A stretch of DNA of 64,000 bases from Patescibacteria group bacterium (GTDB taxonomy: Bacteria; Patescibacteriota; Minisyncoccia; JAHIHE01; JAGLIN01). A program made the translations under genes and the position numbers. Below the pieces are notes generated by a model. The model was not told where the DNA came from, searched no databases, and saw nothing but the letters and a program-made list of their open reading frames with translations. The stretch is from assembly GCA_029210775.1 (NCBI GenBank), contig JARGGI010000001.1, positions 16,493-80,492 on the forward strand, given 5' to 3'. This document shows positions 2,041 through 42,382 of this stretch, piece after piece (position 1 is the stretch's first letter; each line of letters opens with the position of its first letter).

Positions 2041-2114
2041 GGGCGTGTAGCTCAGCTGGTTAGAGCGTTTCTCTGATAAGGAAAAGGTCCCTGGTTCGAG
2101 TCCAGGCACGCCCA
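2041..2114 (+). tRNA. tRNA-Ile (anticodon GAT) in 16S-23S spacer
   Basis: GGGCGTGTAGCTCAGCTGGTTAGAGC...CTGATAAG anticodon loop...GGTTCGAGTCC T-arm; acceptor GGGCGTG/CACGCCC; no encoded CCA. Confidence 0.9.
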
Positions 2115-2199
2115 CTTAATTAAAATGTAATATATAACAGATTACTTGCAATAAGATTTTATAAATGTTATAAGTATAAATGTTGATTTAAATTTATAT

Positions 2200-2273
2200 G
2201 GGCCCGTAGCTCAGCTGGCTAGAGCACTTGCCTTGCACGCAGGGGGTCGCAGGTTCGAATCCTGTCGGGTCCA
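2200..2273 (+). tRNA. tRNA-Ala (anticodon TGC), G3:U70 identity pair present
   Basis: GGGCCCGTAGCTCAGCTGGCTAGAGC...CTTGCAC anticodon loop...GGTTCGAATCC; acceptor GGGCCCG/CGGGTCC gives G3-U70. Confidence 0.9.
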
Positions 2274-2506
2274 CCCATTATTAATATTTTTATAAACTCG
2301 TGAATTATCACGAGTTTTATATTGTATAATTTAACAATATAATAATTGTTTTTTTAAGATTAATAAATATTTGTTGTATTAAAAAATTTATGTTATAATA
2401 AATATACTTTCGTTTCATACTTATTGAAAGTTTTTGAATTGGCATATATAAAAAAATAAAAATAAATTTAAATAAAAATAAAATAACAAGAAAGGGGGTG
2501 ACGTAA

Positions 2507-17400: not shown

Positions 17401-18437
17401 TTTGCTTGTAAAATATATTTTTCAACTTCACTGTAGTTTTCAATATTATCTTTTAATTTTTCAATTAAACTGTGTTCGGGCGATAAGACCATATAAGTAC
17501 ATCCGAAAAGAGTGTCGGGGCGAGTGGTGAAAACTTTAATGCTACTGTCATTGCAAGCGGAGTGAAGCAATTCTGAATTTATAGGCGAAACCTGTATTTG
17601 ACTGGATTGCTTCGTCGCTTTGCTCCTCACAATGACAGAAAATTTAATTTCTGCTCCCTCTGACTTTCCAATCCAATTAATTTGTTGGGTTCTGATTTTA
17701 TTTAAATAATCAACCGAATCTAAATCTTTAATTAATCTGTCAGCATATTTTGTAATTCTCAGCATCCATTGTCTCATTACTTTTCTTTCTGCTAAGGCAC
17801 CACATCGCTCGCACGCACCATTAACGACCTCTTCATTAGCTAGTCCAATTTTGCAACTGGGACACCAATTAATCGCCATCTCTTTTTCATAAGCAAGTCT
17901 ATGATTATCAATAAATTCTTTTTTTTCAATTTCATTCAAATTTTTTGGAATTTTTAAATCTTCAATCGGTTTTGCTTTATCTGATTTTTTATCATAAAAA
18001 CTATTAAACAGTTTCAAAAAAATCCATTGCGTCCATTTATAATATTCTATGTCTGTAGTGTTAATTTCTCGCGACCAGTCAAAACTAGGTCCATAACTTT
18101 TTATTTGGCGTGTAAAATTTTTAATATTATTCTTCGTGACAACTTTTGGATGAGTTTTTGTTTTGATGGCAAAATTTTCCGTAGGCAAACCAAAAGCATC
18201 CCAGCCAATTGGGAACATTACATTATATCCACTCATCCTCCTTTGGCGGGCAACAATGTCAATGGCAATATGACTCCGAAGATGTCCTACATGAAGCCCT
18301 GCTCCAGATGGATATGGAAATTCAATTAAACAATAATACTTTGGTTTTTTTGTAAAATCTTTTGCATCATATATCCCACTTTTATCCCATTTATCTTGCC
18401 ATTTTTTTTCAATATTTCTAAAATTGTATTGTTTCAT
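14373..18437 (-). CDS. leuS: leucyl-tRNA synthetase, 1354 aa, with embedded Nudix, ASCH-like and HAM1/ITPase domains plus a MITE-derived in-frame insert
   Basis: HIGH=HVGH, CP1 TTRPDTLFG, KMSKS present, C-terminal anticodon-binding region; perfect Nudix box GGIEEGETAQEAGKREIQEETGY; HAM1 blocks ATNNQGKLKE / ADDSGLCINTLDGRPGVFSSRY / RGTRGFGYDSIF. Confidence 0.9.
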   Translation of the reverse strand: MKQYNFRNIEKKWQDKWDKSGIYDAKDFTKKPKYYCLIEFPYPSGAGLHVGHLRSHIAIDIVARQRRMSGYNVMFPIGWDAFGLPTENFAIKTKTHPKVVTKNNIKNFTRQIKSYGPSFDWSREINTTDIEYYKWTQWIFLKLFNSFYDKKSDKAKPIEDLKIPKNLNEIEKKEFIDNHRLAYEKEMAINWCPSCKIGLANEEVVNGACERCGALAERKVMRQWMLRITKYADRLIKDLDSVDYLNKIRTQQINWIGKSEGAEIKFSVIVRSKATKQSSQIQVSPINSELLHSACNDSSIKVFTTRPDTLFGCTYMVLSPEHSLIEKLKDNIENYSEVEKYILQAKNKSDLDRTDLAKEKSGVELKGIKAINPASNEEIPIWIADYVLSSYGTGAIMAVPAHDERDFEFAKKFGIKIKEVVAPLFKVFSGDDVIRPEKKTVRQKIVIAFLKHWNEDKYLCLDWKKFNWHTGIIGGIEEGETAQEAGKREIQEETGYKNLKFIRHLGSEQYNTFFNRHKDENRYSVEQGLLFKLEDESLEKPSEEETINHNTVWIDSDKMDDFLNLSNQKMLWQRLIGKAGCFKEDGVNVNSDFLNGLETPEAKKEITAWLEKNKLGKKAVNFKLRDWIFSRQHYWGEPIPIVKCKECGLKKLNIKMELNFRVNKIWDQIICRKKTVETRAFNPEEKDKYFGNIKIGDFIKINNKNTNEFEVIKINKVYNFENLEKLFNKKDLIKKIIPNTKIRSFKELEKCFSFTNDYLNKIQKNGLVGWEFEIINITKNIPLNEKNLPLELPNVKNYEPTETGESPLANIKKWVEVKCPKCKGEAKRETDTMPNWAGSSWYFLRYLDPKNKKEFASRKKIEYWMPVDLYNGGMEHTTLHLLYSRFWHKFLFDLGYVNTREPYAKRRSHGMILAENGQKMSKSRGNVVNPDDVIKQYGSDTLRLYEMFMGPYGDAIPWNTTSLIGMNRFLERVWNMQKKIKKHNIVNSNVETQDFAFPYKNKIILIATNNQGKLKELKNHLANFNIISLKDIDKSIEEPEENGKTFAENSLIKAKYYAQKTGYLTIADDSGLCINTLDGRPGVFSSRYSEGDYKKAYQKIFKELVDKKDRSAYFQSVVTLYNPKDKKYNQFEGKCEGEILEKSRGTRGFGYDSIFMPNVLNKSFGECSSEDKYRFDHRKQATDKLIEYLQKSTQDSAFLQDQKIESLLHKTIKKVTEDIENMKFNTAISQMMILLNEMEKEKMIFNSQYSIFLILLSPFAPHITEELWEMLGEKKSIHLQSWPKINPLFIKETEINLVIQINGKLRDQIKVPANISEEEAKKLALESEKIQKWIAGKEVRKVIFVKGRLVNIVI
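17545..17638. repeat. MITE-like palindromic element (TGTCATT family) inserted in-frame inside leuS CP1
   Basis: CTGTCATTGCAAGCGGAGTGAAGCAATTC...GGATTGCTTCGTCGCTTTGCTCCTCACAATGACAG; encodes SVIVRSKATKQSSQIQVSPINSELLHSACNDSS between EIKF and VFTTRPDT. Confidence 0.8.
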
Positions 18438-30990: not shown

Positions 30991-31778
30991 GATATATTCT
31001 TCAAGCGGTTGAAGTTATTTAAAATAAATTTAGGATAACTACACCGCTATCCCCATCTAAGAATGAGAAATTAACTTTCATGCTGTTTTCATTATAAATC
31101 ATTTTATAAATATTATCCATAAAAAAATAAGTATTTATTTTGATCAATATATTTTTATTTTGAATTACGAAATGCAATGAAATTAAAATTGACAGACCTG
31201 TGTATAAGCTAACTTTATAAAAGTGACACAAATTTCAGAAAATAAATAATCCTTATTTTAAAAGATAAAACTTGTGGATAACTTTGAATTTGACATGTTC
31301 TTTGAAAGGAAGATAATAGAGACGTGGCTATGTCTTTATAAAAGGCAAAAAGCATTGTATTAACCGCAAGGGGAGGGTCTTGATTTTTATGTAAACAAAG
31401 AAAAGAATCAATTAATTTTTAATAAAAATTTTCCAACAAGGAAAAGAAAAATTGATTCAAATAACCTAATACTTGATTGAAATAGTGCGAAAAGATCAAC
31501 CAAACGAAATTCTTGTTTAGATTTTGGTTGTTTTTTGTACACTAAAATTTCTTTTTACAAATGCTGTTTAATGTTTTGTCACTTTGTTAAAGACGAATAA
31601 AAAAATAAATAAGTTTAATATAAAAAATTAAAGGTCGAAGTTGTTTGTCTAAGTTTTAATAATTTGCTATTATTTTGGATTTAATTTTAAGTATCTGTGA
31701 TAGATTCCAGATCAAGTTCGAAATAATAAAAAAGGGTGAAAAATTTAGACGAGTAACTCTAAAAATTTTAATAACTTT

Positions 31779-31906
31779 GAATTACGAAATGTCTTTCTAA
31801 GTCAAACAAAGAATCCCGAAATTACGCACACAGATCTTAATGAAGGGATTATTATGTGATTTTAATTCTTACAATGACAACAAAATTTTGTATTTTGTAA
31901 TTTAAA
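31779..31906 (+). repeat. intergenic repeat family D, copy 2, about 95 bp upstream of vWA gene
   Basis: see 3334-3465. Confidence 0.7.
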
Positions 31907-31999
31907 GCAATAAAAAAATTTAATTAAATTAAATCTTTTCTTCTGTTGATTTTTTAAATTGATAGTGAAAATAAGCAGAAGATTAAGGAGAATAAATTT

Positions 32000-33358
32000 A
32001 TGAGAAGTAAAAAAATATTAGCTTCTCTTGCACTACTTGCAGTTGTGGTAGTTTCAGCATCAATGTTCGCTGCATTTGAAGCTCATGTCATTAATGTGAC
32101 AGCAAAAATTGAAAATGCCTTAACAGTCCCAATTAATCACATTGATTTTGGAACAGTGTTTCCACAAGAACAACTTGATAGACCTTTAGAAATCGCTCTA
32201 TCTGATTCATTTATAGCAGAAAACAGAGTTGATGATGTGGAATATATGATTCGTCAAAAACCAAAATGCGCTATAACGACAAATGAAGGAATAAATTTTG
32301 ATCCTGATTTTACAAAAACAGGACACATTGTCTTGGGTAGTGATGGAACAGCGACAATTGAATGTGGTGAACCAACGAGAGATTTGACAGAAGGCGAAAG
32401 TTGGGGTGTTCTACCTTCACTTTGTCCATATCTTTCAAAACATAAAGCTGAAAACGATCCAGATGACAATCAAATAGGAATTGAAAAGGAAGTTGACGCT
32501 TTTCACCAACCATATAAAGTAATTCAAAATTCAGATAGCAGTTATAGTTTAGTTTATAATGAAGCAAAAGGAAGACTTGCAAAAACAGATAGTGACACAG
32601 TTGATAACTGGGTTATTGACCTTAAAGTTCCTTGTTTTGGAAATCATTGCGCTCAAGACTGGGAAAATTTTGTAACTGGAATTAATCCAGATGCAATTCC
32701 AGCTGATTATGTTCAAGAAATTGGTGATGAGCATAAGATTTTCGGATGTGATTTGTGGGTTGAAGTTACTGAAGTTTCAGAAGACAATGGAGATCTTGCT
32801 TGTTCAAATGCAGATGTAATGCTTGTTCTTGACAGATCTGGAAGTATTGCAACTGACCTTCAAACTCTCAAAGACGCTGCAACAAATTTTGTTACAGCTT
32901 TAGCTCCAACTTCTACTGGTGTTCATATAGGACAAACAAGTTTTGCAAATGTTGGTTCATTAGATTTAGGTCTTTCATATGATGTTTCAGCTATTAATCT
33001 CGCAATATCTGGTTTAAGTTCTGCTGGTTATACAAATTTAGCAGATGGGATTTTGTTTGCGAGCACTGAATTAGCCAGTGGTAATGACAGAAATGATGCA
33101 GACAATCCAGATTATATGGTTGTTATCACCGATGGTGATCCAAACTATCCAGATGCTTCAACTGCTGAATCCTTAGCAACAGATGCAGCAAATGCAGCAA
33201 GAGCTGCTGGTACCAAAATTTATGTTGTGGGCGTAGGAAGTGCTTTAAATGACGTCTATTTAAGTCAAAACATTGCAAACCACACAGGACAATATTATAG
33301 CGTTGCTAATTATTCTGATTTATCTGCAGTTTTTTCTGGAATTGCAACCTGTAACTAA
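32000..33358 (+). CDS. secreted vWA-domain protein (452 aa) with SipW-cognate-like signal/EAHVINVTAKIEN motif
   Basis: SD AAGGAGAATAAATTT-ATG; signal peptide; MIDAS DRSGS (LVLDRSGSI), TDGDP; paralog of 36674-37879. Confidence 0.8.
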   Translation: MRSKKILASLALLAVVVVSASMFAAFEAHVINVTAKIENALTVPINHIDFGTVFPQEQLDRPLEIALSDSFIAENRVDDVEYMIRQKPKCAITTNEGINFDPDFTKTGHIVLGSDGTATIECGEPTRDLTEGESWGVLPSLCPYLSKHKAENDPDDNQIGIEKEVDAFHQPYKVIQNSDSSYSLVYNEAKGRLAKTDSDTVDNWVIDLKVPCFGNHCAQDWENFVTGINPDAIPADYVQEIGDEHKIFGCDLWVEVTEVSEDNGDLACSNADVMLVLDRSGSIATDLQTLKDAATNFVTALAPTSTGVHIGQTSFANVGSLDLGLSYDVSAINLAISGLSSAGYTNLADGILFASTELASGNDRNDADNPDYMVVITDGDPNYPDASTAESLATDAANAARAAGTKIYVVGVGSALNDVYLSQNIANHTGQYYSVANYSDLSAVFSGIATCN

Positions 33359-33449
33359 TTCTGTTTGCTTAAATTTAAAGTGATTATTTTAATTACTTTT
33401 GACTCTGCGTCTTTGAATTAAGGCGCAGGGGACTGAGGTCGTTAAAAGT

Positions 33450-33842
33450 ATATTGTTATTGCGAGCGAAGCGTGGCAATCATGCGACTATGTCTGTCATT
33501 GCGAGCGAAGCGTGGCAATCCCGAAATAAATTCAGAAAGTTATAATATATCGTTTCGTGAATTTAGACTTGAGATTGCTTCGTCGCTATGCTCCTCGCAA
33601 AGACAATGTTATTCCTCTGTCATTGCGAGCGAAGCGTGGCAATCCCGAAATTAGTTTCAGAAAACTGTAATATATCGTTTCGTGAATTTAGACTCGAGAT
33701 TGCTTCGTCGCTATACTCCTCGCAAAGACAAACACAAGAAAAAAAAGTTTTATGTTAATAAACTCGAGATTGCTTCGTCGCTATACTCCTCGCAAAGACA
33801 GAGATAGATTGTCACATCGCTATGCTCCTCGCAACGACAAAC
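33450..33842. repeat. array of about 4 tandem/partial copies of the TGTCATT MITE family (about 110-120 bp units)
   Basis: alternating arms TGTCATTGCGAGCGAAGCGTGGCAATCCCGAAA and GATTGCTTCGTCGCTATRCTCCTCGCAAAGACA separated by a conserved core ...CGTTTCGTGAATTTAGACTYGAG. Confidence 0.85.
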
Positions 33843-34020
33843 ATAGTAAAATTTGAAAAATTTATATAAACAGTATACAATGTATGCAATAAATATTAAC
33901 AAATCAAAAATGGAAAATGAAAATTTAGAAAAAGATGAAAATTTACGAGAAGATTTGACACAAGAAAACGAAACAATTACAAAAAACGAAGAAGTAAAGA
34001 TCGAAGAAAAATCTGAAGGT

Positions 34021-34461
34021 ATGAAAAAAATTCAGAAAAATAAAATGACACCGAAAAAGATTTTGAAAATCGCTGCCCTTTTTATAGCATTCTTTCTGGT
34101 CTGGTTTACAGTTGTGCAATATATCACTGCTGATAAATATGAAGCGGTAGTCAAAGTTATAGAAGAAGGAGGAAAAGTTGGAGTGAATCCAATGACAGAG
34201 CGACTTGATTATGGAGATTTACCAAAAGGAAATGCATCAACAAGATTTATTACAATTGAAAATAGTGGGAGTATGGATATTTTCGTTGTAGTTGTAAAAT
34301 ATGGTGGAATCGCTGAACTAATAAAGATTAACGAAAATAATTTTGTTCTTTCATCGGGAGACAAAAAAAAGCTTGAATTGACACTTAATATGCCGATCAG
34401 TGCGAATAAGAAAGGATATGAAGGAAAAATTGTAATATTTAAACTACCGAAATTGTTTTAA
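34021..34461 (+). CDS. small signal-anchored Ig-like-fold protein (ORF track 33853; likely start Met 34021 after GAAGGT SD)
   Basis: MKKIQKNK..KILKIAALFIAFFLVWF anchor; LDYGDLPKGNASTRFITIENSGSMDIFVVVV Ig-like (DUF1573/ASH-like pattern). Confidence 0.55.
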   Translation: MKKIQKNKMTPKKILKIAALFIAFFLVWFTVVQYITADKYEAVVKVIEEGGKVGVNPMTERLDYGDLPKGNASTRFITIENSGSMDIFVVVVKYGGIAELIKINENNFVLSSGDKKKLELTLNMPISANKKGYEGKIVIFKLPKLF

Positions 34462-34595
34462 ATCCTAATGTTGTTCTAAATTTATTTCTGAATCTATTGA
34501 GTAGTAGAGTTTGTCTATGGTTTATTTCACAATAACAGATGTAATAGTTAGAAGATCCTGAACTAAATTCAGAATGACGATATAAAACGAAAAAA

Positions 34596-35021
34596 ATGAA
34601 CAAAAAAAAGAAATCAATAATTGAATTTATTATATATTTAGTCTTTGTTGGCGCAGTTGCAATTGGAACGCCGAAAGCCTTAGTTTATGCTCTTGGAACT
34701 GACTATCCGATTGCATCCATAACTTCCGGTTCAATGTGGCCAGAATTGAAAAAAAATGATTTGGTACTCATTAAATATGCTGAAAAAAAAAGTCTTGCAA
34801 AAGGAGATATAGTGGTTTTTAAAAATGAAAGAGGTTTTACAATTCATAGAATAGTTGAATTAAACGAAGACACAATTACGACAAAAGGGGATGCAAATAA
34901 TGTTTCTGATTCTCCTGTTGAGTATGAAAAAATTATCGGTAAGACTGTTAATTGGAATAATAAGCCAGTTAGAATTCCATATTTAGGCAGACTGACAATT
35001 TGGGCTTCAAATCGACGATAA
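34596..35021 (+). CDS. signal peptidase I, archaeal/ER type (SipW-like, S26 family)
   Basis: N-terminal TM, SITSGSMWPELKKNDLVLI (SGSMxP box), short 141-aa length typical of SipW/SPC18 type. Confidence 0.75.
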   Translation: MNKKKKSIIEFIIYLVFVGAVAIGTPKALVYALGTDYPIASITSGSMWPELKKNDLVLIKYAEKKSLAKGDIVVFKNERGFTIHRIVELNEDTITTKGDANNVSDSPVEYEKIIGKTVNWNNKPVRIPYLGRLTIWASNRR

Positions 35022-35108
35022 AGCTATATAATTAAAAACTGTATGTATAATTTCTCAATTCATTTTATTCGTTTGATGAATAATATTCATTAGATATAAT
35101 CAAAAAGT

Positions 35109-36539
35109 ATGATCGGAAATTTTAAAAAAATTAGGTTTAAGAGAAGACTTAGAAAACTTCGTTTTATAATTTTTACTTTTTTAAAAAACACTTTAGTGTT
35201 AACCAGCATTGCAGGATTTGTTGTGGCAAGTGTGCCAATATTCAGCGCCTATGAGGCTCATGTCATCAATGTCACAGCCAAAATTGAAAACGATATTCCT
35301 ACCATTGATCCTCCAGGTGGTTATTTCTGTAACGACGGTAGTTTGACAATGAAATTATTCACTTCAATAGTTGGAGCAAATATTATATATACAACTGATG
35401 GAACGAACCCAGACTGTTTTGCACCGAATGGCATAATATACTCAGCGCCATTTCCTTTAACATATAGTGCAACGGTTAAAGCCAGAGCATGTCATGATGA
35501 CAATCAGAGCGTTACTGTGAATAAATATTTTGATGTTTCTTCACAATATTGTGAGGAAAAGAAATATTGTGATGCTCGTTCAATTGGCTATTGGCAAAAT
35601 CATGAAGGTTGTCCAGCGAGCAGTAATTGGTCTGCTGAAATTAATGCTTTATCTTTGGGTGAATTATCAGGAGCATTTGGAACAATTTCAGGATCAGATA
35701 TTTGTTTCTATTTGTCTCCAAAAAATTGTCCTGCTGCAAAAACAATTGAAGGAAAACTTTGTCAAGCAAAAGGAAAAACTCTTGCAAATTTATCAAATAT
35801 TGGATCAAATCATTTAGATCTAAACGCTCTGATTGCAGGATCTGATGATGGAAATAAAGCATTTGATAATTTGGGTTTAAATTCATCTTCAACGGTTAGA
35901 GAAGCTTTGTTTAAAATTGAAAAAATCATCATAGATGTGTCTGCAACAAAAAGAGAATTGACTGATGCAGCATATGTTGCTGAAAGAATTTATGCTTTTT
36001 ATGAAGAAGAAAATGAAAATACACCATGGTGTTTTTATGGAGAAGTTGAGCTTAATCTTCTCACAATTCCTCTTGTCAAAGAACTACCCGCATCTGTGTG
36101 TGGAAATGGAAATTTAGATATTGATATTGGTGAAACTTGTGATGATGGAAACACAATTAGTGAAGATGGTTGCTCTGAAATTTGCCAGATTGAAACACCG
36201 ATTGAAGAATCAAAAGATGAAAAGCCCCCAGAAGCAGAGCTCCCAATTGTTGAGGAAGAACTGATTTCAGAAATTCCAGATGAAGATCCAATTACAGAAG
36301 AATCTCTAATTCAACAATCTGTTGAAGATCCTGTCGTTGAAGAATCTTTTACAGAACCACCTCTAACTGAAGAAACTGACAAAATAGACCCTACTAATGA
36401 AGATTTCACATCAGAACCTCAACAAGAAGATCTTTCTGTTGAAAAGCCGATACAAGAAGATATTTCTACTGAAAAACCCGGCCCTAACGACTCTTCGGTT
36501 GAGTATTCAGAATTGCTGACACCGTCTATAATCTATTAA
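35109..36539 (+). CDS. secreted protein with SipW-cognate-like motif, chitobiase/hexosaminidase C-terminal-like domain, Myxococcus-type Cys-rich repeat and acidic Pro/Glu-rich tail
   Basis: AYEAHVINVTAKIEN; IIYTTDGTNPDC...; CGNGNLDIDIGETCDDGNTISEDGCSEICQIE. Confidence 0.7.
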   Translation: MIGNFKKIRFKRRLRKLRFIIFTFLKNTLVLTSIAGFVVASVPIFSAYEAHVINVTAKIENDIPTIDPPGGYFCNDGSLTMKLFTSIVGANIIYTTDGTNPDCFAPNGIIYSAPFPLTYSATVKARACHDDNQSVTVNKYFDVSSQYCEEKKYCDARSIGYWQNHEGCPASSNWSAEINALSLGELSGAFGTISGSDICFYLSPKNCPAAKTIEGKLCQAKGKTLANLSNIGSNHLDLNALIAGSDDGNKAFDNLGLNSSSTVREALFKIEKIIIDVSATKRELTDAAYVAERIYAFYEEENENTPWCFYGEVELNLLTIPLVKELPASVCGNGNLDIDIGETCDDGNTISEDGCSEICQIETPIEESKDEKPPEAELPIVEEELISEIPDEDPITEESLIQQSVEDPVVEESFTEPPLTEETDKIDPTNEDFTSEPQQEDLSVEKPIQEDISTEKPGPNDSSVEYSELLTPSIIY

Positions 36540-36550
36540 CAAATAAACAA

Positions 36551-36643
36551 TGTCATTTCAGAATTTATTCCAAAGCAACAGCTTTTGAATAGAAATCTGA
36601 GATAGAGCTTACCTTGTTTTATTAAAACTTTTCTGGAATGACA
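36551..36643. repeat. MITE-like element, TGTCATTTCAGAA...TTCTGGAATGACA termini
   Basis: 13-bp terminal inverted repeats with one mismatch. Confidence 0.6.
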
Positions 36644-36673
36644 ACAACAGTGACAATTAATAGAATCTAAGCA

Positions 36674-37879
36674 TTGATTAAATATATGAAATTCAATTTG
36701 AAAAAACTTAAAACGATTGTCACAGTTTCATCGCTTCTGTTTATAAGCGTGTTATTTACTGTGTTTTTTCAAAATAATGTTTCAAAAGCAAATTCAATTT
36801 TAAGTCCTATAATTGTGAATTTATTAAATCTTGAATTTAGCGTAGTATTTCCTGGGGAACAATTACATCAAAACTTTCTTGTTTCCTATTCTGGAGATGG
36901 AAGCGGAATTTATACTATCACTGAGAAATATAAACCTTTACCAACAGCTGAAGTTCCAGTCGGATATGTCGGAAGTATAAGTGATTATTGTCAAGAAAAT
37001 TATGAAGATTATACAAGATGCTATAAAACTCTTTGTCCTTATATGACTGAATATAGTGAAGAAGGAGAGGGAGATCTTATAAATTCAGCATCTGTTGGAC
37101 CAAATGATTCATCTGATGATTGGGTTGTTGCCTTGAGCGTGCCAGCGATTATGGGAAATGTTGCGCAAGATCATACTGGCGGAATCATTACTGAAAACGG
37201 AGCTTATGGATGCGATCTTTCATTTGATGTTGAACGAATATGTGAAAACAAGCCTGTTGATATAGTTTTGATTATGGACAGATCCGTGAGCATGGGTCCC
37301 ACATATGACAACCCTTCAAGATTGTCTCAAGCGAAAACCGCTGCCAATTCATTTTTAGGAAATTTAGGAAGTAATGACCAGTCAGCTTTGGTATCCTATG
37401 CAGGTAGTGCGTCTTTAGATAAGGGATTATCTGCAATTCATATTACCGATCCAGCATCAACTGAAACTGCAGTAAACGCTCTTTCGGCCTCTGGAAGCAC
37501 AAATATTGGTGATGCAATTGCAAAAGGAACCGCAGAATTTAGTTTAGGTAGAGAAAATAATCAAGCCGTAAAAGTAATGATTCTTCTCACGGACGGTAAA
37601 CCAACTTGTCCTGTTATTCATGAGGGATATTCTCAATGTGGATATGTACAAGATCCAGGAGATGTTGATCATGCAGAAAATATGGCGATATTGGTAAAAC
37701 AAGCTGGAATTAAAGTCTTCACAATCGGACTTGGCGATAACGAGAAAATAAACGAAGATATGCTTCAAAATATCGCATCATTGAAAAGTGATGGAGTAAC
37801 TCCTGAATATTATTATGCCCCAAACGGAAGTGATTTGGAAGGGATTTATGATGAGATTTCAGGGGAACTTTGTCAATAG
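36674..37879 (+). CDS. secreted vWA-domain protein (401 aa), paralog of 32000-33358
   Basis: VLIMDRSVSM MIDAS, LLTDGKPT; shared blocks FxxVFPxEQL, DxWVxxLxVPxxxGNxAQD, GCDL with protein 32000. Confidence 0.8.
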   Translation: MIKYMKFNLKKLKTIVTVSSLLFISVLFTVFFQNNVSKANSILSPIIVNLLNLEFSVVFPGEQLHQNFLVSYSGDGSGIYTITEKYKPLPTAEVPVGYVGSISDYCQENYEDYTRCYKTLCPYMTEYSEEGEGDLINSASVGPNDSSDDWVVALSVPAIMGNVAQDHTGGIITENGAYGCDLSFDVERICENKPVDIVLIMDRSVSMGPTYDNPSRLSQAKTAANSFLGNLGSNDQSALVSYAGSASLDKGLSAIHITDPASTETAVNALSASGSTNIGDAIAKGTAEFSLGRENNQAVKVMILLTDGKPTCPVIHEGYSQCGYVQDPGDVDHAENMAILVKQAGIKVFTIGLGDNEKINEDMLQNIASLKSDGVTPEYYYAPNGSDLEGIYDEISGELCQ

Positions 37880-37999
37880 TTATGAGCTTAAAGTAAGCGC
37901 CTTAATTAGAATATAATTTCCAATTAAAGCGTTTGCTCTAATCGGCAAACAAGAGGGAAGCCGTAGCGAATGACACCAGTCCTAATACGACTTCTCTCA

Positions 38000-38230
38000 A
38001 ACTACTTGAAAAAATATAAATAAAAATACAAAAAATACAAAAAAAAATTACCCAACTTATAAAAATACATAAAAAAAGAAACACAAAATATAACAAAAAA
38101 AACAAAAAAAGATTAACATAAATATAAAAAAGCGAAAAACAAAAAAGTCAAAAACACACAAAAATAACACTCAAGAAAAACGCGCGAAATAAAAGAAAAA
38201 CGCACAAACAAAGCCTATATAAACAATGTT
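38000..38230 (+). repeat. about 230-bp strand-asymmetric A+C-rich low-complexity tract (almost no G/T on + strand)
   Basis: AAAAATACAAAAAATACAAAAAAAAATTACCCAAC...AAAACGCGCGAAATAAAAGAAAAACGCACAAACAAAGCC. Confidence 0.8.
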
Positions 38231-38298
38231 TTTTAAAAAATACAATGATTTAGGTGGTTTTTGATTTGGTCTATTTACACATTTAAAACAGTGTAAAG

Positions 38299-38423
38299 TG
38301 TCATTCTTTTATAATGTCATTCTGAATTTATTTCAGAATCAATCGTCCCTTACACTTTGTTCTCAAGATAAATCACAGACAAACCAATAATCTAAAAGAT
38401 CCTGAAACAAGTTCAGGATGACA
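38299..38423. repeat. MITE-like element of the TGTCAT superfamily immediately upstream of the 932-aa gene
   Basis: TGTCATTCTTTTATAATGTCATTCTGAATTTATTTCAGAATCA...GATCCTGAAACAAGTTCAGGATGACA. Confidence 0.6.
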
Positions 38424-38474
38424 CTTAAAAACAATAAAATTATTTTTATATATATTATTAATTAATTTACACTT

Positions 38475-41273
38475 ATGAAGAAAATTAGCAAACAACCAAA
38501 AAATGGCACTCAAAAGAAAATAGCTTCATTTGGTATAATTTCCTTGTTGTTAAATGTTGTTATGACAAGTGTGTTACTTGCGCCTTCAGAAGATGTTCTC
38601 GGACAAGGAGTTGAACAAGTATGTGAAAACAAGCCTGACTCATATGTTTCAGAAGATGATGATGAATATAAAGGCAATGTTTTGATAAACGAATTGATGT
38701 GGATGGGAACTTCAGTTTCTACGGCAGATGAATGGATTGAATTAAGAAATATGACACCAATTGAAATTAATTTCAATAATACTCCTTGGTCAATATATAA
38801 AAATGATTCACGTATGCTTGTAATTAGCAGCGGAATACTTAAAGGGTGTGGTTATTTTCTTGTTTCTAACAATAGTGAAAATCATAAGTTTACTAACGGA
38901 GAATCTGTCCTAAATATCACTCCTGATTTCATCGACAAATCAGTTTCTCTTTCTGATTCTTCGGTTCAATATAAACTTTATGATACGGAAAATAGCGAAG
39001 GAAATCTTATTGATACAGCTGATGATGGTTCAGGCAAAGTTTTAGCTGGAGAATACACACCTGAAAACAATTGGAAATCAATGTCAAGAAGAACTGCCCA
39101 AGACGGAACTTTAGCAGAAAATTGGTGCACCGCTCAAACCAGAGTAAATTGGGACGCTAAAACCCCAGAATTTGGAACACCAGGCGCTGAGAATATCTGT
39201 AACAGAATTTCCGGTTACAAATTTAACGATGTAAATGGTAATGGCACTTGGGATAAAAACGAGTCTGATTCTGAACCTGGTCTTAACGAATGGATAATAA
39301 ATCTTTATGGTAATTTAATTACCATTACATCGACAGTAACTGATGTCTTGGGATATTATGAATTCAAAAATTTGTTAGCAGGAACATATTTCGTCAAAGA
39401 AGAAATTAAAAATAAATGGCAACAAACAACTCCAGTAGATCCAGATTATTTTGAAATTGATTTGACAGATAATCCAATATCTGACGATATAAACTTTGGA
39501 AATCAGTTAATATCAGTTTGTGGAAATAAAACAATTGAAGATGGAGAAATGTGTGACGATGGAAATATAGAAAGTGGAGACGGATGTTCCAGTGAATGTC
39601 AAATTGAAAATACAGCTTCAATTTCTGGATGTAAATATGATGATGAGAACAATAATTCAAAAGTTGATGAAAAAGAAGGAAAGTTAAGCGGTTGGGAAGT
39701 TCAACTGATTGGCTGTCCATATTCTTCAGAAGGAGATTTCCTACCAAAAACTAGTATAAATGAAAATCCACAAGAAGGCGAAGTCGGATATTGCTCGGTA
39801 ATCAAAACTACAACCACCACTACTGACGGTTGCTATAGTTTTGAAGGTCTTTCCGCTGGAGATTATGGAGTTAATGAAGTAGATCAAGAAAACTGGACAC
39901 AGACTTTTCCAACAAATGGAATGTTCTATTCTTTTAATCTGACAGATGGTGAGGCAAAGACAGATGTTGACTTTTTGAACCACGAAGAGACTACACCTCC
40001 TGAATGTTCAGGAGAAGAAACACAAAATTGTTATGGTGGTCCTGGAGGAACGGCAGGTGTTGGGATTTGCCAAGCAGGTATCCAAACTTGTGTTGATGGC
40101 AATTGGAGTCAATGCAGTGGTCAAGTTACTCCTCGAAGTGAAATTTGTGGAAATGGTATTGACGAGGATTGTAATGGTTCTGATGCAGGCTGTGGAGGTT
40201 CTGGTCCAATTCCGAAACCAACAATCATAATCACGAATGAAAAAGTTTCCTATCTTGGAAGTGGAAGCGCATTAGTAACATGGACAACTAATATTGAAAC
40301 AACCAGGCAAGTTGCCTATGGCGATAATTCAATCACCCTTCTTGGCGCTGTTCCAAAATATGGATATGACTCAGTTAATGAGGAGTCAGATAATATGACA
40401 AAAAATCACAGCGTCACAATTGATGAACTGACCGATGGAATTCCATACTATTTTAGACCAATTGCTGATCGACCTGGATCAACGGGGGAAAAGGTTGGAA
40501 TTGAAGTTTATTATCAACCCGGAGAAGTGAAAGGAGTAACCGACCCAGTTGTGCCAGAAGTTGAAGAATGTAATTATCTTTTTGAATATATCAAGTTTGG
40601 AAAAGATAATAATCCTGTTGAAGTTCAAAAACTTGAATCATTCTTGAATATATTTGAAAGTGAAAGTCTTGCTATAAACGGGATCTATGAACAAGTTGAT
40701 TTTGATGCTGTTTCAAGATTTCAGGAAAAATATTTTGAAAAAGTTCTTTCTCCTTGGAACCATGACAGCGCAACGGGATATGTCTATATCACAACAAAAA
40801 AAAGAATTAATGAAATTTATTGTGAAAGAGAATTTCCTTTAACAAAAGAACAAGCGGAAGAAGTTGCGCGATATGACACACTATTTGGCATAAGAGCACC
40901 AAGCGCTGAACAGCCAGCAGAGAGCTTTGATATAGAAACTGGTGCGGGTGCGACTACTACTACTCCAGAAAGTGGAATTGAGAGCACAGAAGGCGAAAAT
41001 GAAGGCACTGAAGGCCCACAGATTGAACTTGGGAACGAAAAGGAAAGCGGAGAAGTGGCTGGAACAACTGATGAAGTAAATGCAGATAATGGTGAAGGCG
41101 AGGTCGAAGAAATCAACAGTGAAACTGAGGAAGAAGTTGTTTATGCTGATAGTGGATATTCAAATTTATATTTCTGGATACCAGTTATATTACTACTTAT
41201 AATTATTGCTATTATTTATTATGTTACAAAGATGAAAAAAGGTGGCAATGATGCAGGATCGTCAACAGAATAA
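38475..41273 (+). CDS. large surface adhesin-like protein (932 aa): signal peptide, lamin-tail-like domain, two SdrD-B/CNA-B-like domains, Myxococcus Cys-rich repeat, Cys-rich module, FN3-like domain, acidic region, C-terminal TM anchor
   Basis: GNVLINELMW...EWIELRN; ISGYKFNDVNGNGTWD; CGNKTIEDGEMCDDGNIESGDGCSSECQIE; C-term IPVILLLIIIAIIYYVTKMKKGG. Confidence 0.75.
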   Translation: MKKISKQPKNGTQKKIASFGIISLLLNVVMTSVLLAPSEDVLGQGVEQVCENKPDSYVSEDDDEYKGNVLINELMWMGTSVSTADEWIELRNMTPIEINFNNTPWSIYKNDSRMLVISSGILKGCGYFLVSNNSENHKFTNGESVLNITPDFIDKSVSLSDSSVQYKLYDTENSEGNLIDTADDGSGKVLAGEYTPENNWKSMSRRTAQDGTLAENWCTAQTRVNWDAKTPEFGTPGAENICNRISGYKFNDVNGNGTWDKNESDSEPGLNEWIINLYGNLITITSTVTDVLGYYEFKNLLAGTYFVKEEIKNKWQQTTPVDPDYFEIDLTDNPISDDINFGNQLISVCGNKTIEDGEMCDDGNIESGDGCSSECQIENTASISGCKYDDENNNSKVDEKEGKLSGWEVQLIGCPYSSEGDFLPKTSINENPQEGEVGYCSVIKTTTTTTDGCYSFEGLSAGDYGVNEVDQENWTQTFPTNGMFYSFNLTDGEAKTDVDFLNHEETTPPECSGEETQNCYGGPGGTAGVGICQAGIQTCVDGNWSQCSGQVTPRSEICGNGIDEDCNGSDAGCGGSGPIPKPTIIITNEKVSYLGSGSALVTWTTNIETTRQVAYGDNSITLLGAVPKYGYDSVNEESDNMTKNHSVTIDELTDGIPYYFRPIADRPGSTGEKVGIEVYYQPGEVKGVTDPVVPEVEECNYLFEYIKFGKDNNPVEVQKLESFLNIFESESLAINGIYEQVDFDAVSRFQEKYFEKVLSPWNHDSATGYVYITTKKRINEIYCEREFPLTKEQAEEVARYDTLFGIRAPSAEQPAESFDIETGAGATTTTPESGIESTEGENEGTEGPQIELGNEKESGEVAGTTDEVNADNGEGEVEEINSETEEEVVYADSGYSNLYFWIPVILLLIIIAIIYYVTKMKKGGNDAGSSTE

Positions 41274-41290
41274 AATAGTTATATATTTGC

Positions 41291-41319
41291 AAAAACCCGG
41301 TTGACTTGATCGGGTTTTT
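41291..41319 (+). terminator. rho-independent terminator of adhesin gene
   Basis: AAAAACCCG-gttgacttgat-CGGGTTTTT. Confidence 0.7.
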
Positions 41320-41329
41320 GTATTTGTTT

Positions 41330-41702
41330 TCTTGCGATGACATAGGTTTGTCTTTGCGAGGAGGAACTCGGGATTGCCACACTTCGCTCGCAAAGACAGA
41401 TAAAAAAACTATACGAAATTAAATTTGGGATTGCCGCTCTTCGCTCGCAATGACAGAGGAATAACATTGTCATTACGTGGAGGAACTCGGGATTGCCACG
41501 CTTCGCTCGCAAAGACAGAGGAATAACATTGTCATTGCGAGGAGGAACGACGAAGCAATCTTGAGTCTAAATTCACGATACGATATATTACAGTTTTTTG
41601 AATTTAAATTTGGGATTGCCACACTTTGTTCACAAAGACAGATAAAAAAACTATACGAAATTAAATTTGGGATTGCCACACTTTCCTCGCAATGGCAAGA
41701 GC
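41330..41702. repeat. second array of TGTCATT MITE family, opposite orientation to the 33450-33842 array
   Basis: 41530-41640 is the reverse complement (about 85% identical) of the unit at 33600-33730; additional short-form units TGTCTTTGCGAGGAGGAACTCGGGATTGCCACACTTCGCTCGCAAAGACA. Confidence 0.85.
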
Positions 41703-41821
41703 AACGGTCAAAATAACAAAAAAAGGGAAATAATATTCTAAACGATATTTCTTTTTAAAAAAATTAACAAAAACGGAAAAATAGAGTAAAATTAAATTAG
41801 ATTAATTTAAATCTTTTAAAT

Positions 41822-42382
41822 ATGAAATTAAAAAACATTGAGAATCCAACAAGACTGATATATCATAACCCAGTTTCACTTGTCACTTCAAATCACAAAG
41901 AAATAAAAAATGTTTTTACAGTCTCGTGGCTTTGTAGTGTTTCAAATCATCCACCGATGGTGATGATTAGCGTTGATAAAAAAAGATTTTCTTTCAATCT
42001 AATCAAACAAAGCGGTAAATTTGTGATAAACATTCCCAATATAAAGATGATTAAAGATGTCATATATTGCGGAAATGTTTCAAGAAAAAATAAAGATAAA
42101 TTTGAAGAGAGAAATTTAATGTATTCTGTTTCTGACAAAGGAGGGATTATTCTTAATGATACAATTGCTTATGTTGAATGTGAAGTGAAAAATGAATTTG
42201 ATGTTGGTGATCACATTTTGTTTATCGGAGAAATTATAACCTCAGGAGCTGAAGAAGAAGCCTATTCCAATGGCAGTTGGAATTTGAAAAATGAAAATGC
42301 AAAAACATTACATTTTTTAGGTGAGAATGGAAGATATATAACAATTGATGAAATTAATTTTAAAAAAAATAATAATTTTTAA
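41822..42382 (+). CDS. flavin reductase-like (FMN-binding split-barrel) domain protein
   Basis: Block order and length typical of HpaC-like flavin reductases. Confidence 0.6.
   Translation: MKLKNIENPTRLIYHNPVSLVTSNHKEIKNVFTVSWLCSVSNHPPMVMISVDKKRFSFNLIKQSGKFVINIPNIKMIKDVIYCGNVSRKNKDKFEERNLMYSVSDKGGIILNDTIAYVECEVKNEFDVGDHILFIGEIITSGAEEEAYSNGSWNLKNENAKTLHFLGENGRYITIDEINFKKNNNF

What the first reader, a model, noticed from the sequence alone, without database searches (positions are those of the whole stretch)
32062..32130. Post-signal peptide motif EAHVINVTAKIEN conserved between two otherwise different secreted proteins with only synonymous DNA changes
Protein 32000 (…SMFAAFEAHVINVTAKIENAL) and protein 35109 (…PIFSAYEAHVINVTAKIENDI) share a 13-aa identical block right after the hydrophobic signal core. 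Their DNA (32074-32120 vs 35257-35300) differs at 6 third-codon positions, all silent (gaa/gag, att/atc, gtg/gtc, gca/gcc, aat/aac). That is purifying selection on the peptide, not recent duplication. It resembles the A-x-F-x-D/E region of SipW-cognate signals (TasA: ...AAFNDIKSK) and is a candidate recognition/cleavage or polymerisation (donor-strand) segment.
Basis: seen in the sequence. Interest (0 to 1): 0.6.

Follow-up and report, generated by a model that had tools for sequence, protein, structure and literature searches.

The report
Shared N-terminal assembly tag, Patescibacteria surface proteins
The 13-residue peptide shared by two unrelated secreted proteins is a near-invariant N-terminal tag carried by hundreds of Patescibacteria surface-protein families, always encoded beside a dedicated archaeal-type (SipW-like) signal peptidase; it most likely joins the proteins into an adhesive surface fibre, as the TasA/TapA donor strand does in Bacillus.

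Summary
ORF A (32000-33358) and ORF B (35109-36539) share EAHVINVTAKIEN directly after their signal-peptide cores, and they resemble each other nowhere else. The six DNA differences are all silent. Codon identity (8 of 14) is about what codon usage alone predicts (7.2), so this is old purifying selection, not recent conversion.

The peptide is not private to this window. A tag A-[FY]-E-A-H-V-[IV]-N-V-T-A-x-I heads 507 protein clusters (50% identity) out of 1.84 billion representatives, essentially all from Patescibacteria/Parcubacteria MAGs. It sits on at least six body types.

The commonest body is an unannotated ~225-aa beta-rich "module", found alone or fused to VWA or SpaA-like domains. 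The genes cluster in a conserved operon: tagged modules, then a membrane-anchored ASH/PapD-like Ig protein, then an archaeal-type signal peptidase I, then a tag-only protein (B's position), often with a module that lacks the tag.

AlphaFold leaves the tag unpacked in the monomer. Tagless modules lack exactly those residues.

Best reading: a SipW-type cleavage-adjacent N-terminal extension that acts as a donor strand, as in TasA/TapA. It is not a detectable TasA family member. Polymerisation is inferred, not shown.

The parts
32000..33358 (+). ORF A, 452 aa: signal peptide (aa 1-~25), tag, beta-rich module (aa ~40-262), VWA domain (aa 272-444, MIDAS DRSGS).
   Evidence: The module has 1401 homologues at E<=1e-3. 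AF2 mean pLDDT is 91.6. VWA (PF00092) E=8e-18.
32072..32110 (+). Family-wide tag in A: A-F-E-A-H-V-I-N-V-T-A-K-I (aa 25-37). The block identical to B continues to 32116.
   Evidence: Residues 27-34 have pLDDT<50 in the full-length AF2 model.
32117..32785 (+). Module of A (aa 40-262): Ig/ASH-like beta-rich domain with six conserved Cys. Proposed acceptor domain.
   Evidence: pLDDT 93.2. No Pfam match. Best Foldseek match is an ASH/PapD-like domain, probability 0.84, E=0.09.
33853..34461 (+). 202-aa protein: charged N-terminus, one TM helix, extracytoplasmic ASH/PapD-like Ig domain. Conserved operon partner.
   Evidence: It lies immediately upstream of the peptidase gene at 61 of 71 peptidase genes. 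The ASH assignment is below threshold (Hydin E=3.5e-4; 10 of 20 members).
34596..35021 (+). 141-aa archaeal/ER-type signal peptidase I (SipW-like); motifs SGSMWP, HRIV, KGDAN.
   Evidence: TIGR02228 82.3 bits (cutoff 51.85); Bacillus SipW equivalog 51 bits (cutoff 190, not met). Orthologues in L001 and L002.
35109..36539 (+). ORF B, 476 aa: long basic signal/anchor region, tag, CHB_HEX_C/Fn3_assoc domain (aa 68-139), Cys-containing core of unknown fold (aa ~150-320), Cys-rich repeat (aa 329-363), acidic Pro/Glu-rich tail.
   Evidence: It is 100% identical to an NCBI 'Patescibacteria group bacterium' protein. It sits in the conserved tag-only position downstream of the peptidase gene (53 of 71).
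35247..35285 (+). Tag in B: A-Y-E-A-H-V-I-N-V-T-A-K-I (aa 47-59). The identical block runs 35253-35291.
36674..37879 (+). 401-aa paralogue of A (24% identity): ordinary signal peptide, module without the tag, VWA domain (MIDAS DRSVS). Proposed acceptor-only end subunit.
   Evidence: Tagless modules also occur in L002, L003, L004, L046, L063, L097 and L113.
38475..41273 (+). 932-aa surface protein (LTD, SdrD_B, SpaA-like, Cys-rich repeat, C-terminal TM helix) with no tag. Same strand, followed by a strong terminator-like hairpin at 41288-41322. Possibly part of the cluster.
   Evidence: In L002 and L003, related LTD/SdrD_B proteins carry a variant tag (AFEAHVVDVKAEVA).

Best explanation
EAHVINVTAKIEN is the core of a modular N-terminal extension (the tag A-[FY]-E-A-H-V-[IV]-N-V-T-A-x-I). 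It marks the substrates of a dedicated archaeal-type (SipW-like) signal peptidase operon found widely in Patescibacteria/Parcubacteria.

Proposed mechanism. The proteins are exported by Sec. The operon's peptidase cuts next to the invariant small residue, either A|[FY]EAHV or, in the TasA register, A|A[FY]EAHV. The tag then becomes the free N-terminus of the mature protein. It forms an amphipathic beta-strand (I-V-A-I on one face, N-T-K on the other) and docks into the Ig/ASH-like module of another subunit by donor-strand complementation.

Proteins with tag plus module (A here) would then form the fibre body. A module-only protein (36674 here, with a VWA adhesin domain) would cap one end. Tag-only proteins (B here, encoded directly after the peptidase like TapA next to SipW) would start or anchor the other end. 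The membrane-anchored ASH/PapD-like protein may act as chaperone or assembly platform.

Shown: the conservation, the modularity, the operon linkage, the peptidase type, and the unpacked tag in the model. Inferred: the cleavage position, strand insertion, polymer formation, and the roles of B, 36674 and the TM-Ig protein.
For: (1) All 120 best homologues of A's module (52-70% identical overall) carry the near-invariant tag. About 50 homologues of B carry it too.
(2) A tag-only profile finds 507 clusters among 1.84e9 representatives, and all listed matches are N-terminal. Of the 134 new representatives among the 150 listed, 85 have the module, 36 have other bodies and 13 are fragments.
(3) The same peptide occurs in loci of 31-61% GC. 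Synonymous sites are scrambled: 45% of same-residue codons differ within loci, and nucleotide identity is 0.80 in the tag against 0.445 in the next 13 codons.
(4) Synteny: the peptidase gene is present in 70 of 120 eight-kb tag loci. The TM-Ig gene is immediately upstream of 61 of 71 peptidase genes, and a tag-only gene is immediately downstream of 53 of 71. Full operons were seen in L001-L003.
(5) AF2 gives a confident module (pLDDT >90), but tag residues 27-34 score <50 and form coil.
(6) Tagless modules with ordinary AxA signal peptides lack exactly ~FEAHVINV.
(7) Precedent from the literature: the N-terminus of TapA is homologous to the TasA donor strand and initiates fibres (PMC10151520). 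TasA fibres form by donor-strand exchange (PMC9674648, title and abstract). An aromatic residue at P2' makes TasA dependent on SipW (PMC10269814).
(8) hhalign aligns FAAF with TasA WAAF, and IDFGTVFPQE with FDLSNLKPGD.
Against: There is no direct evidence of cleavage or polymerisation. No multimer model could be run.

The module is not a detectable TasA homologue. There is no PF12389 hit. Foldseek against the TasA fibre gives E=0.27 and TM 0.31. hhalign probability is only 30%, and only over the N-terminal 60 columns.

In the mature-form AF2 model the tag reaches pLDDT 68-92 without beta pairing, so it may simply lie on its own domain.

L001 has no tagless module within 10 kb, so the three-class scheme is not universal.

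Position -3 (F/L/M) is atypical for signal peptidase I under one of the two candidate cleavage registers.

Invariance this extreme is more typical of a tag recognised by an enzyme than of chaperone-usher donor strands (general knowledge).
Confidence: 0.5

Rival explanations
1. The tag is only a processing, sorting or retention signal. It would be the P' side recognition determinant of the dedicated SipW-like peptidase, and/or a handle bound by the membrane-anchored ASH-like protein or the cell envelope. It would hold diverse adhesins at the cell surface, with no subunit-to-subunit polymerisation.
For: The sequence is extremely invariant and appears on at least six unrelated bodies. The genes for the peptidase and the TM-Ig protein are tightly linked. 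Most tag-only proteins are large multidomain adhesin-like proteins. No polymer has been shown.
Against: Type I signal peptidases normally read positions -3 and -1 and at most a few P' residues (general knowledge), yet 13 residues are fixed here. A conserved module-only paralogue that lacks exactly the tag, together with the unpacked tag in AF2, is what a donor/acceptor system predicts. A plain sorting signal does not explain these features.
Confidence: 0.3
2. The tag is an intramolecular structural element or a modification site. For example, it could be a first strand or stalk bearing the N-V-T sequon for N-linked glycosylation, conserved for folding or stability of each protein on its own.
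For: N-V-T is near-invariant, and T-to-S variants that keep a sequon exist (NVSA in L026, L086, L100, L103). In the mature-form AF2 model residues 11-20 have pLDDT 92. The archaeal AbpA donor strand carries a glycosylated Asn (PMC9245690).
Against: In tag-only proteins the tag is followed by Pro-rich linkers and unrelated domains, so it cannot be a shared core strand. Variant tags lose the sequon (HVVDVKA, HVVGVTA). Residues outside the sequon (E, H, V, A, I) are just as invariant.
Confidence: 0.1
3. The shared block is a chance match or the trace of a recent recombination or gene-conversion tract between the two genes.
For: None beyond the local identity. One internal EAHVVNVTA in a cytoplasmic RmlD-like ORF (L096) shows that short partial matches can arise by chance.
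Against: Synonymous sites are saturated (8 of 14 codons identical against 7.2 expected). The flanks cannot be aligned. The same peptide heads 507 protein clusters and was found in at least 119 stretches of genome contigs.
Confidence: 0.01

Closest known systems
Bacillus subtilis tapA-sipW-tasA (TasA fibres; TapA initiator; SipW peptidase)
   Same: The operon carries a dedicated archaeal/ER-type signal peptidase. Two otherwise different secreted proteins share a short segment that starts at the cleavage site (TasA AFNDI..., TapA homologous N-terminus; PMC10151520). An aromatic residue sits next to the cleavage site. The tag-only protein is encoded adjacent to the peptidase gene. The profile alignment is in register: FAAF on WAAF.
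   Different: The subunit body has no PF12389 match and no significant fold match to TasA. The tag sequence is different, longer and far more invariant. It sits on at least six architectures. The operon also has a TM-anchored ASH-like protein and tagless modules. The host phylum is Patescibacteria.
Chaperone-usher pili (Fim/Pap): N-terminal extension donor strand, PapD chaperone, tip adhesin lacking the extension
   Same: The logic matches: body subunits with extension plus Ig-like acceptor, an end subunit without the extension that carries an adhesin domain (36674 with VWA), and a PapD/ASH-like Ig protein in the operon (weak). The weak top Foldseek matches are PapD-like and FimA.
   Different: There is no outer membrane and no usher. 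The candidate chaperone is membrane-anchored and only a sub-threshold ASH match. A dedicated signal peptidase is present. The fold similarity is not significant.
Archaeal bundling pili AbpA/AbpB (TasA-like) and other donor-strand filaments of monoderm cells
   Same: Secreted beta-rich subunits are proposed to polymerise by an N-terminal donor strand. A second protein is proposed to supply the first strand. An N-x-T sequon lies on the donor strand (PMC9245690).
   Different: The AbpA operon has no dedicated peptidase. There is no sequence relationship. For AbpA, AlphaFold self-complements the strand; here the strand stays unpacked.
Type IV pilin class III signal with prepilin peptidase
   Same: One conserved N-terminal tag is shared by major and minor subunits with different bodies. 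It is read by a dedicated peptidase and then used for assembly (general knowledge).
   Different: That tag is a hydrophobic alpha-helix cut on the cytoplasmic side by an aspartic protease. Here the cut is by a Ser/His type I signal peptidase after the hydrophobic core, and the tag is an amphipathic strand-like peptide.

Membership tests
TasA/camelysin family (Pfam PF12389, Peptidase_M73) | Sequence match to the family HMM | tested here: not met
   No PF12389 hit for A's module even at E<=10. Precomputed Pfam for 120 homologues lists only VWA or SpaA_2.
TasA/camelysin family (Pfam PF12389, Peptidase_M73) | Profile-profile or fold similarity to TasA | tested here: inconclusive
TasA/camelysin family (Pfam PF12389, Peptidase_M73) | Encoded in an operon with a SipW-type signal peptidase | tested here: met
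TasA/camelysin family (Pfam PF12389, Peptidase_M73) | The mature N-terminal segment inserts as a donor strand into the next subunit | not testable with these tools
   Only monomer prediction is offered, and constructs are not accepted. The monomer leaves residues 27-34 at pLDDT<50.
SipW-cognate class signal peptide (curated NCBIfam/TIGRFAM-type model) | Match of the N-terminal region to a curated signal-domain model | tested here: not met
   The N-terminal peptides of A, B and 36674 give no relevant NCBIfam hit at E<=10.
Archaeal/ER-type signal peptidase I (TIGR02228) | HMM score above the curated cutoff; Ser/His catalytic motifs | tested here: met
   82.3 bits against 51.85 for 34596-35021; 82-90 bits for the L001 and L002 orthologues. 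SGSMWP, HRIV and GDAN are read directly from the sequence.
Bacillus SipW equivalog (NF046067) | HMM score above the equivalog cutoff | tested here: not met
   51 bits against a cutoff of 190.
Chaperone-usher pilus system | PapD-like chaperone and outer-membrane usher | tested here: not met
   No usher-like gene in the cluster. The TM-Ig protein gives only sub-threshold ASH/PapD-like hits.
VWA domain adhesins | PF00092 match and MIDAS DxSxS motif | tested here: met
   A: E=8e-18, DRSGS. 36674: E=1.9e-18, DRSVS.

The most novel reading that the evidence does not exclude
Patescibacteria (mainly Parcubacteria) possess a previously undescribed donor-strand surface-fibre system with its own subunit fold. 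In this reading a universal 13-residue N-terminal tag lets any adhesin domain (VWA, SpaA-like, SdrD_B, LTD, CHB_HEX and others) be plugged onto a fibre. A SipW-like peptidase and a membrane-tethered PapD/ASH-like protein would build the fibre. This would be a third lineage of donor-strand pili beside the chaperone-usher and TasA/Abp systems, and a likely host-attachment organelle of these episymbionts.
Probability: 0.4. Interest if true: 0.8.

Novelty: new variant of a known kind. Interest (0 to 1): 0.62.

Why it matters
Patescibacteria are ultra-small, mostly uncultured bacteria thought to live attached to other cells. Apart from type IV pili, their surface organelles are largely unknown.

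This tag defines a large, unannotated secreted-protein system: 507 clusters at 50% identity, named 'hypothetical' or 'VWA domain-containing' in the databases. It has a conserved operon and a dedicated peptidase.

The tag gives a simple sequence handle (A[FY]EAHV[IV]NVTA) for cataloguing the adhesin repertoire of these organisms. It also gives a concrete, testable assembly model borrowed from TasA/TapA.

If donor-strand assembly is confirmed, that principle would extend to a new fold and a new phylum. It would also suggest a modular way of decorating a fibre with adhesins.

Tried and rejected
- Pfam and NCBIfam scans of the tag and the module found nothing, including at E<=10.
- Foldseek of the module model against the PDB found nothing at E<=1e-3.
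- A sequence profile against PDB chains hit only VWA domains.
- The exact product of B is not on record in the contig index.
- Rfam found no RNA family in 31000-42000.
- The L002 Peptidase_S24 gene, considered as a possible second (LepB-type) signal peptidase, turned out to be LexA.
- B's core domain has no Pfam or PDB relatives.
- Literature searches for Patescibacteria with donor strand, SipW or VWA found no description of this system.
- The chance and gene-conversion explanations were rejected.
- The conservation table is partly biased by ascertainment, because the genome scan required E-A-H-V-x-N-V-T-A. Conclusions on invariance therefore rest on the homology-based sets and on positions outside the pattern (-2, -1, +10).

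Full report
**1. The observation.**
ORF A (32000-33358, + strand, 452 aa) begins MRSKKILASLALLAVVVVSASMFAAFEAHVINVTAKIENALTV. ORF B (35109-36539, + strand, 476 aa) has ...LTSIAGFVVASVPIFSAYEAHVINVTAKIENDIPT.

The identical block EAHVINVTAKIEN is nt 32078-32116 in A and nt 35253-35291 in B. A codon-by-codon comparison shows five silent differences inside the block. A sixth silent difference lies in the Ala two codons upstream. There are no replacement changes in the block, and every codon after the final Asn is a replacement.

BLASTP aligns only A aa 1-39 with B aa 25-61, and nothing else in the two proteins. The motif occurs only twice in the six-frame translation of the window.

Eight of 14 codons are identical, against 7.2 expected if codons were drawn independently from the window's codon usage. 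The synonymous sites are therefore saturated. The shared peptide is old and is kept by selection on the protein; it is not a recent duplication or conversion tract.

**2. The genes around it.**
- A consists of a signal peptide, the motif, a ~225-aa region with no Pfam or NCBIfam match, and a C-terminal VWA domain (PF00092, E=8e-18; MIDAS DRSGS).
- Two genes lie between A and B. One encodes a 202-aa protein with one TM helix and an Ig-like ectodomain (33853-34461). The other encodes a 141-aa archaeal/ER-type signal peptidase I (34596-35021). It scores 82.3 bits on TIGR02228 (cutoff 51.85) and 51 bits on the Bacillus SipW equivalog (cutoff 190). The motifs SGSMWP, HRIV and GDAN are visible in its sequence.
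- B carries, after the motif, a CHB_HEX_C/Fn3_assoc domain, a Cys-containing core with no Pfam or PDB relatives, a Cys-rich repeat and an acidic Pro/Glu-rich tail.
- Downstream, 36674-37879 encodes a 24%-identical paralogue of A with the same region plus VWA. It has an ordinary signal peptide and no motif.
- 38475-41273 encodes a 932-aa LTD/SdrD_B/SpaA-like surface protein with a C-terminal TM helix, followed by a strong terminator-like hairpin.
- B is 100% identical to an NCBI protein from a 'Patescibacteria group bacterium' MAG. The window has 31% GC.

**3. The motif is a family-wide tag.**
A search with A aa 1-262 returned 1401 proteins at E<=1e-3. The best 120 (52-70% identical, E<1e-79) come from Parcubacteria/Patescibacteria MAGs. 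All of them carry h-region-[PS][ML]F[AS]A[FY]EAHV[IV]NVTA[KRTQ]IENAL.V....I.FGTVFPQE.

Many of these are stand-alone ~250-270-aa proteins. I call this region the module. Others add VWA or SpaA_2 domains at the C-terminus.

About 50 homologues of B also carry [FY]EAHV[IV]NVTA.IE. In them it is followed by a short Pro-rich linker and the core CDALSIGYWRNHEGC.... Still other bodies (SdrD_B, LTD+CHB_HEX) bear the tag as well.

Nearly all are labelled Patescibacteria: Ryan-, Wildermuth-, Giovannoni-, Azam-, Buchanan-, Harrison-, Doudna- and Portnoybacteria, and Paceibacterota. Some TPA bins are labelled Saccharibacteria or Gammaproteobacteria yet carry the same operon.

In these loci I found 232 tagged ORFs: 165 with the module and 67 without.

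A 30-column profile of signal core plus tag, searched against 1.84 billion representative proteins, found 507 clusters at E<=1e-3. All listed matches lie near the N-terminus. Of 134 new representatives, 85 have the module, 36 have other bodies and 13 are fragments. The other bodies are the B core, an RS.GFWK.H...LLALKFN family, SdrD_B, CHB_HEX, LTD and others.

The part common to all classes is A(-2)-[FY]-E-A-H-V-[IV]-N-V-T-A-x-I(+10). Module proteins continue ENAL.V, while the others diverge at once. The table is partly biased by the search pattern. Positions -2, -1 and +10 lie outside the pattern, and the homology-based sets are not biased.

The same peptide is found in loci of 31% to 61% GC. 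Among 171 within-locus tag pairs, 45% of same-residue codons use different codons. Nucleotide identity falls from 0.80 in the tag to 0.445 in the next 13 codons.

One internal match in a cytoplasmic RmlD-like ORF (L096) and one doubtful match in a probably spurious ORF (L089) were the only likely false positives.

**4. A conserved operon.**
Longer contigs (L001-L003) show the following order:
- two to four tagged module genes, including VWA- or SpaA_2-fused ones and a divergent ENALYVHPQSL paralogue;
- the TM-Ig protein;
- the signal peptidase;
- a tag-only protein, either B-like or an 845-880-aa LTD/SdrD_B protein with the variant tag AFEAHVVDVKAEVA;
- in L002 and L003, a 650-aa protein with a tagless module.

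Across the 8-kb loci, the peptidase gene is present in 70 of 120 loci with a tag. The TM-Ig gene lies immediately upstream of 61 of 71 peptidase genes. A tag-only gene lies immediately downstream of 53 of 71; the rest mostly run off the locus. B therefore occupies a conserved position.

The TM-Ig ectodomain gives consistent but sub-threshold ASH/PapD-like matches: Hydin ASH at E=3.5e-4, and 10 of 20 members with weak PF15780 hits.

**5. Structure.**
AlphaFold2 models full-length A with mean pLDDT 91.6. It shows a signal helix (aa 3-27), a beta-rich module and a VWA domain, both confident. Residues 27-34 (EAHVINVT) score <50, and aa 27-40 are coil.

The mature module alone (aa 25-265) gives pLDDT 93.2 and pTM 0.86. 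Its first ten residues average 68, and the first 16 have no beta pairing.

True tagless modules start ...A|SHVTIDPNLSVSP..., which aligns with TAKIENALSVP. They therefore lack just ~FEAHVINV, the same residues that AlphaFold leaves unpacked. These are L002_15240, L003_17227, L063, L113, L046, L097, L004_1795 and window 36674.

Foldseek against the PDB finds nothing significant. The weak top matches are an ASH/PapD-like domain (probability 0.84), the type 1 pilus rod (0.33) and, further down, the TasA fibre (E=0.27, TM 0.31).

hhalign of the module family against a TasA family alignment gives 30.5% probability over the N-terminal 60 columns only. It places FAAF on WAAF and IDFGTVFPQE on FDLSNLKPGD.

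**6. Mechanism.**
The best-supported reading is that the tag is a cleavage-adjacent N-terminal extension of the substrates of the operon's SipW-like peptidase.

The only consistently small residue is position -2 (A 95-99%, otherwise G). This favours cleavage at A|[FY]EAHV. The TasA register (A|A[FY]) fits the module class but fits less well the tag-only proteins that have N, F or V at -3. Either way the tag becomes the mature N-terminus with an aromatic residue at P1' or P2'. That property makes TasA dependent on SipW rather than on LepB-type enzymes (PMC10269814).

Three classes of protein exist: tag plus module, tag only, and module only. The tag is conserved far more strongly than the fold it precedes, yet it is unpacked in the monomer. 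It also has an I-V-A-I / N-T-K two-faced pattern. Together these fit donor-strand complementation.

On this model, tag-plus-module proteins (A) polymerise. The tagless module with VWA (36674) caps one end, as FimH does. Tag-only proteins (B) donate the first or last strand, as TapA does for TasA (PMC10151520; PMC9674648; AbpB in PMC9245690). The TM-anchored ASH-like protein may be a chaperone or platform.

None of the assembly steps is shown. They are inferences.

**7. Rivals.**
- The tag may be only a recognition or retention signal for the peptidase, the TM-Ig protein or the envelope (about 0.3).
- It may be an intramolecular element or glycosylation site. N-V-T is a sequon, T-to-S variants keep it, and D/G variants lose it (about 0.1).
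- Chance or recombination is excluded.

**8. Comparison and novelty.**
The system works like tapA-sipW-tasA, and in its logic like chaperone-usher pili. It fails the sequence test for the TasA family, and the fold test is inconclusive. No curated model covers the tag or the module. The databases name these proteins 'hypothetical', 'VWA domain-containing' or 'FN3 associated'.

The held literature contains no description. The only paper linking Patescibacteria with donor strands merely notes that PF12389 homologues occur in the phylum.

I rate it a new variant of a known kind: a SipW-type, probably donor-strand, surface-protein system with a new subunit module and a modular tag, widespread in Parcubacteria.

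Noticed in passing
window 33458-33830 (between ORF A and the TM-Ig gene): A cluster of REP-like palindromic elements. TTGCGAGCGAAGCGTGGCAATC occurs three times, and its partner GAGATTGCTTCGTCGCTAT(A/G)CTCCTCGCAA occurs three to four times. They include a 125-bp tandem repeat (1.9 copies, 93% match). Degenerate copies lie at 17603 and 41545. No Rfam match.
   Followed up: partly
window 32093-32101 and 35268-35276 (N-V-T within the tag): The tag contains a near-invariant N-x-T sequon. Variants NVSA keep it (L026, L086, L100, L103), while HVVDVKA and HVVGVTA variants lose it. The archaeal AbpA donor strand carries an N-glycan, so glycosylation of the tag is conceivable.
   Followed up: partly
L001 11725-12465, L002 10884-11639, L003 11468-12235 (also L040, L100, L103): A divergent tagged module paralogue (246-255 aa, ENALYVHPQSL, lacking the first Cys pair) is conserved as the last module gene before the TM-Ig gene in other genomes. 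It is absent from this window, which also lacks any stand-alone canonical module.
   Followed up: no
L002 12701-15238, L003 14577-17225: Large LTD/SdrD_B proteins sit in B's position and carry a variant tag, AFEAHVVDVKAEVA. The window's own LTD/SdrD_B protein (38475-41273) has no tag but does have a C-terminal TM helix.
   Followed up: partly
L005, L016, L041, L070, L071, L081; many loci labelled Saccharibacteria: TPA bins labelled 'uncultured Gammaproteobacteria' or 'Saccharibacteria' carry the same tag-peptidase operon as Parcubacteria. GC ranges from 0.39 to 0.61. The record labels are probably unreliable, or the system is broader than Parcubacteria.
   Followed up: partly
L096 4727-5617: An internal EAHVVNVTA occurs in an RmlD-like (dTDP-4-dehydrorhamnose reductase-like) cytoplasmic ORF. 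It is a chance match to the DNA pattern, not a tag.
   Followed up: yes
window 2041-2277: Adjacent tRNA-Ile(GAT) and tRNA-Ala(TGC) genes. This pair is typical of a 16S-23S rRNA spacer, which suggests an rRNA operon near the start of the window.
   Followed up: no
P0193, P0224, P0228, P0253 and similar; L015, L032, L044, L074, L084: A second large tag-only family has the tag followed by C..FE.RS.GFWK.H...PQT.G...LLALKFN and has no annotation. It may be distantly related to B's core (GYW.NHEGC).
   Followed up: no
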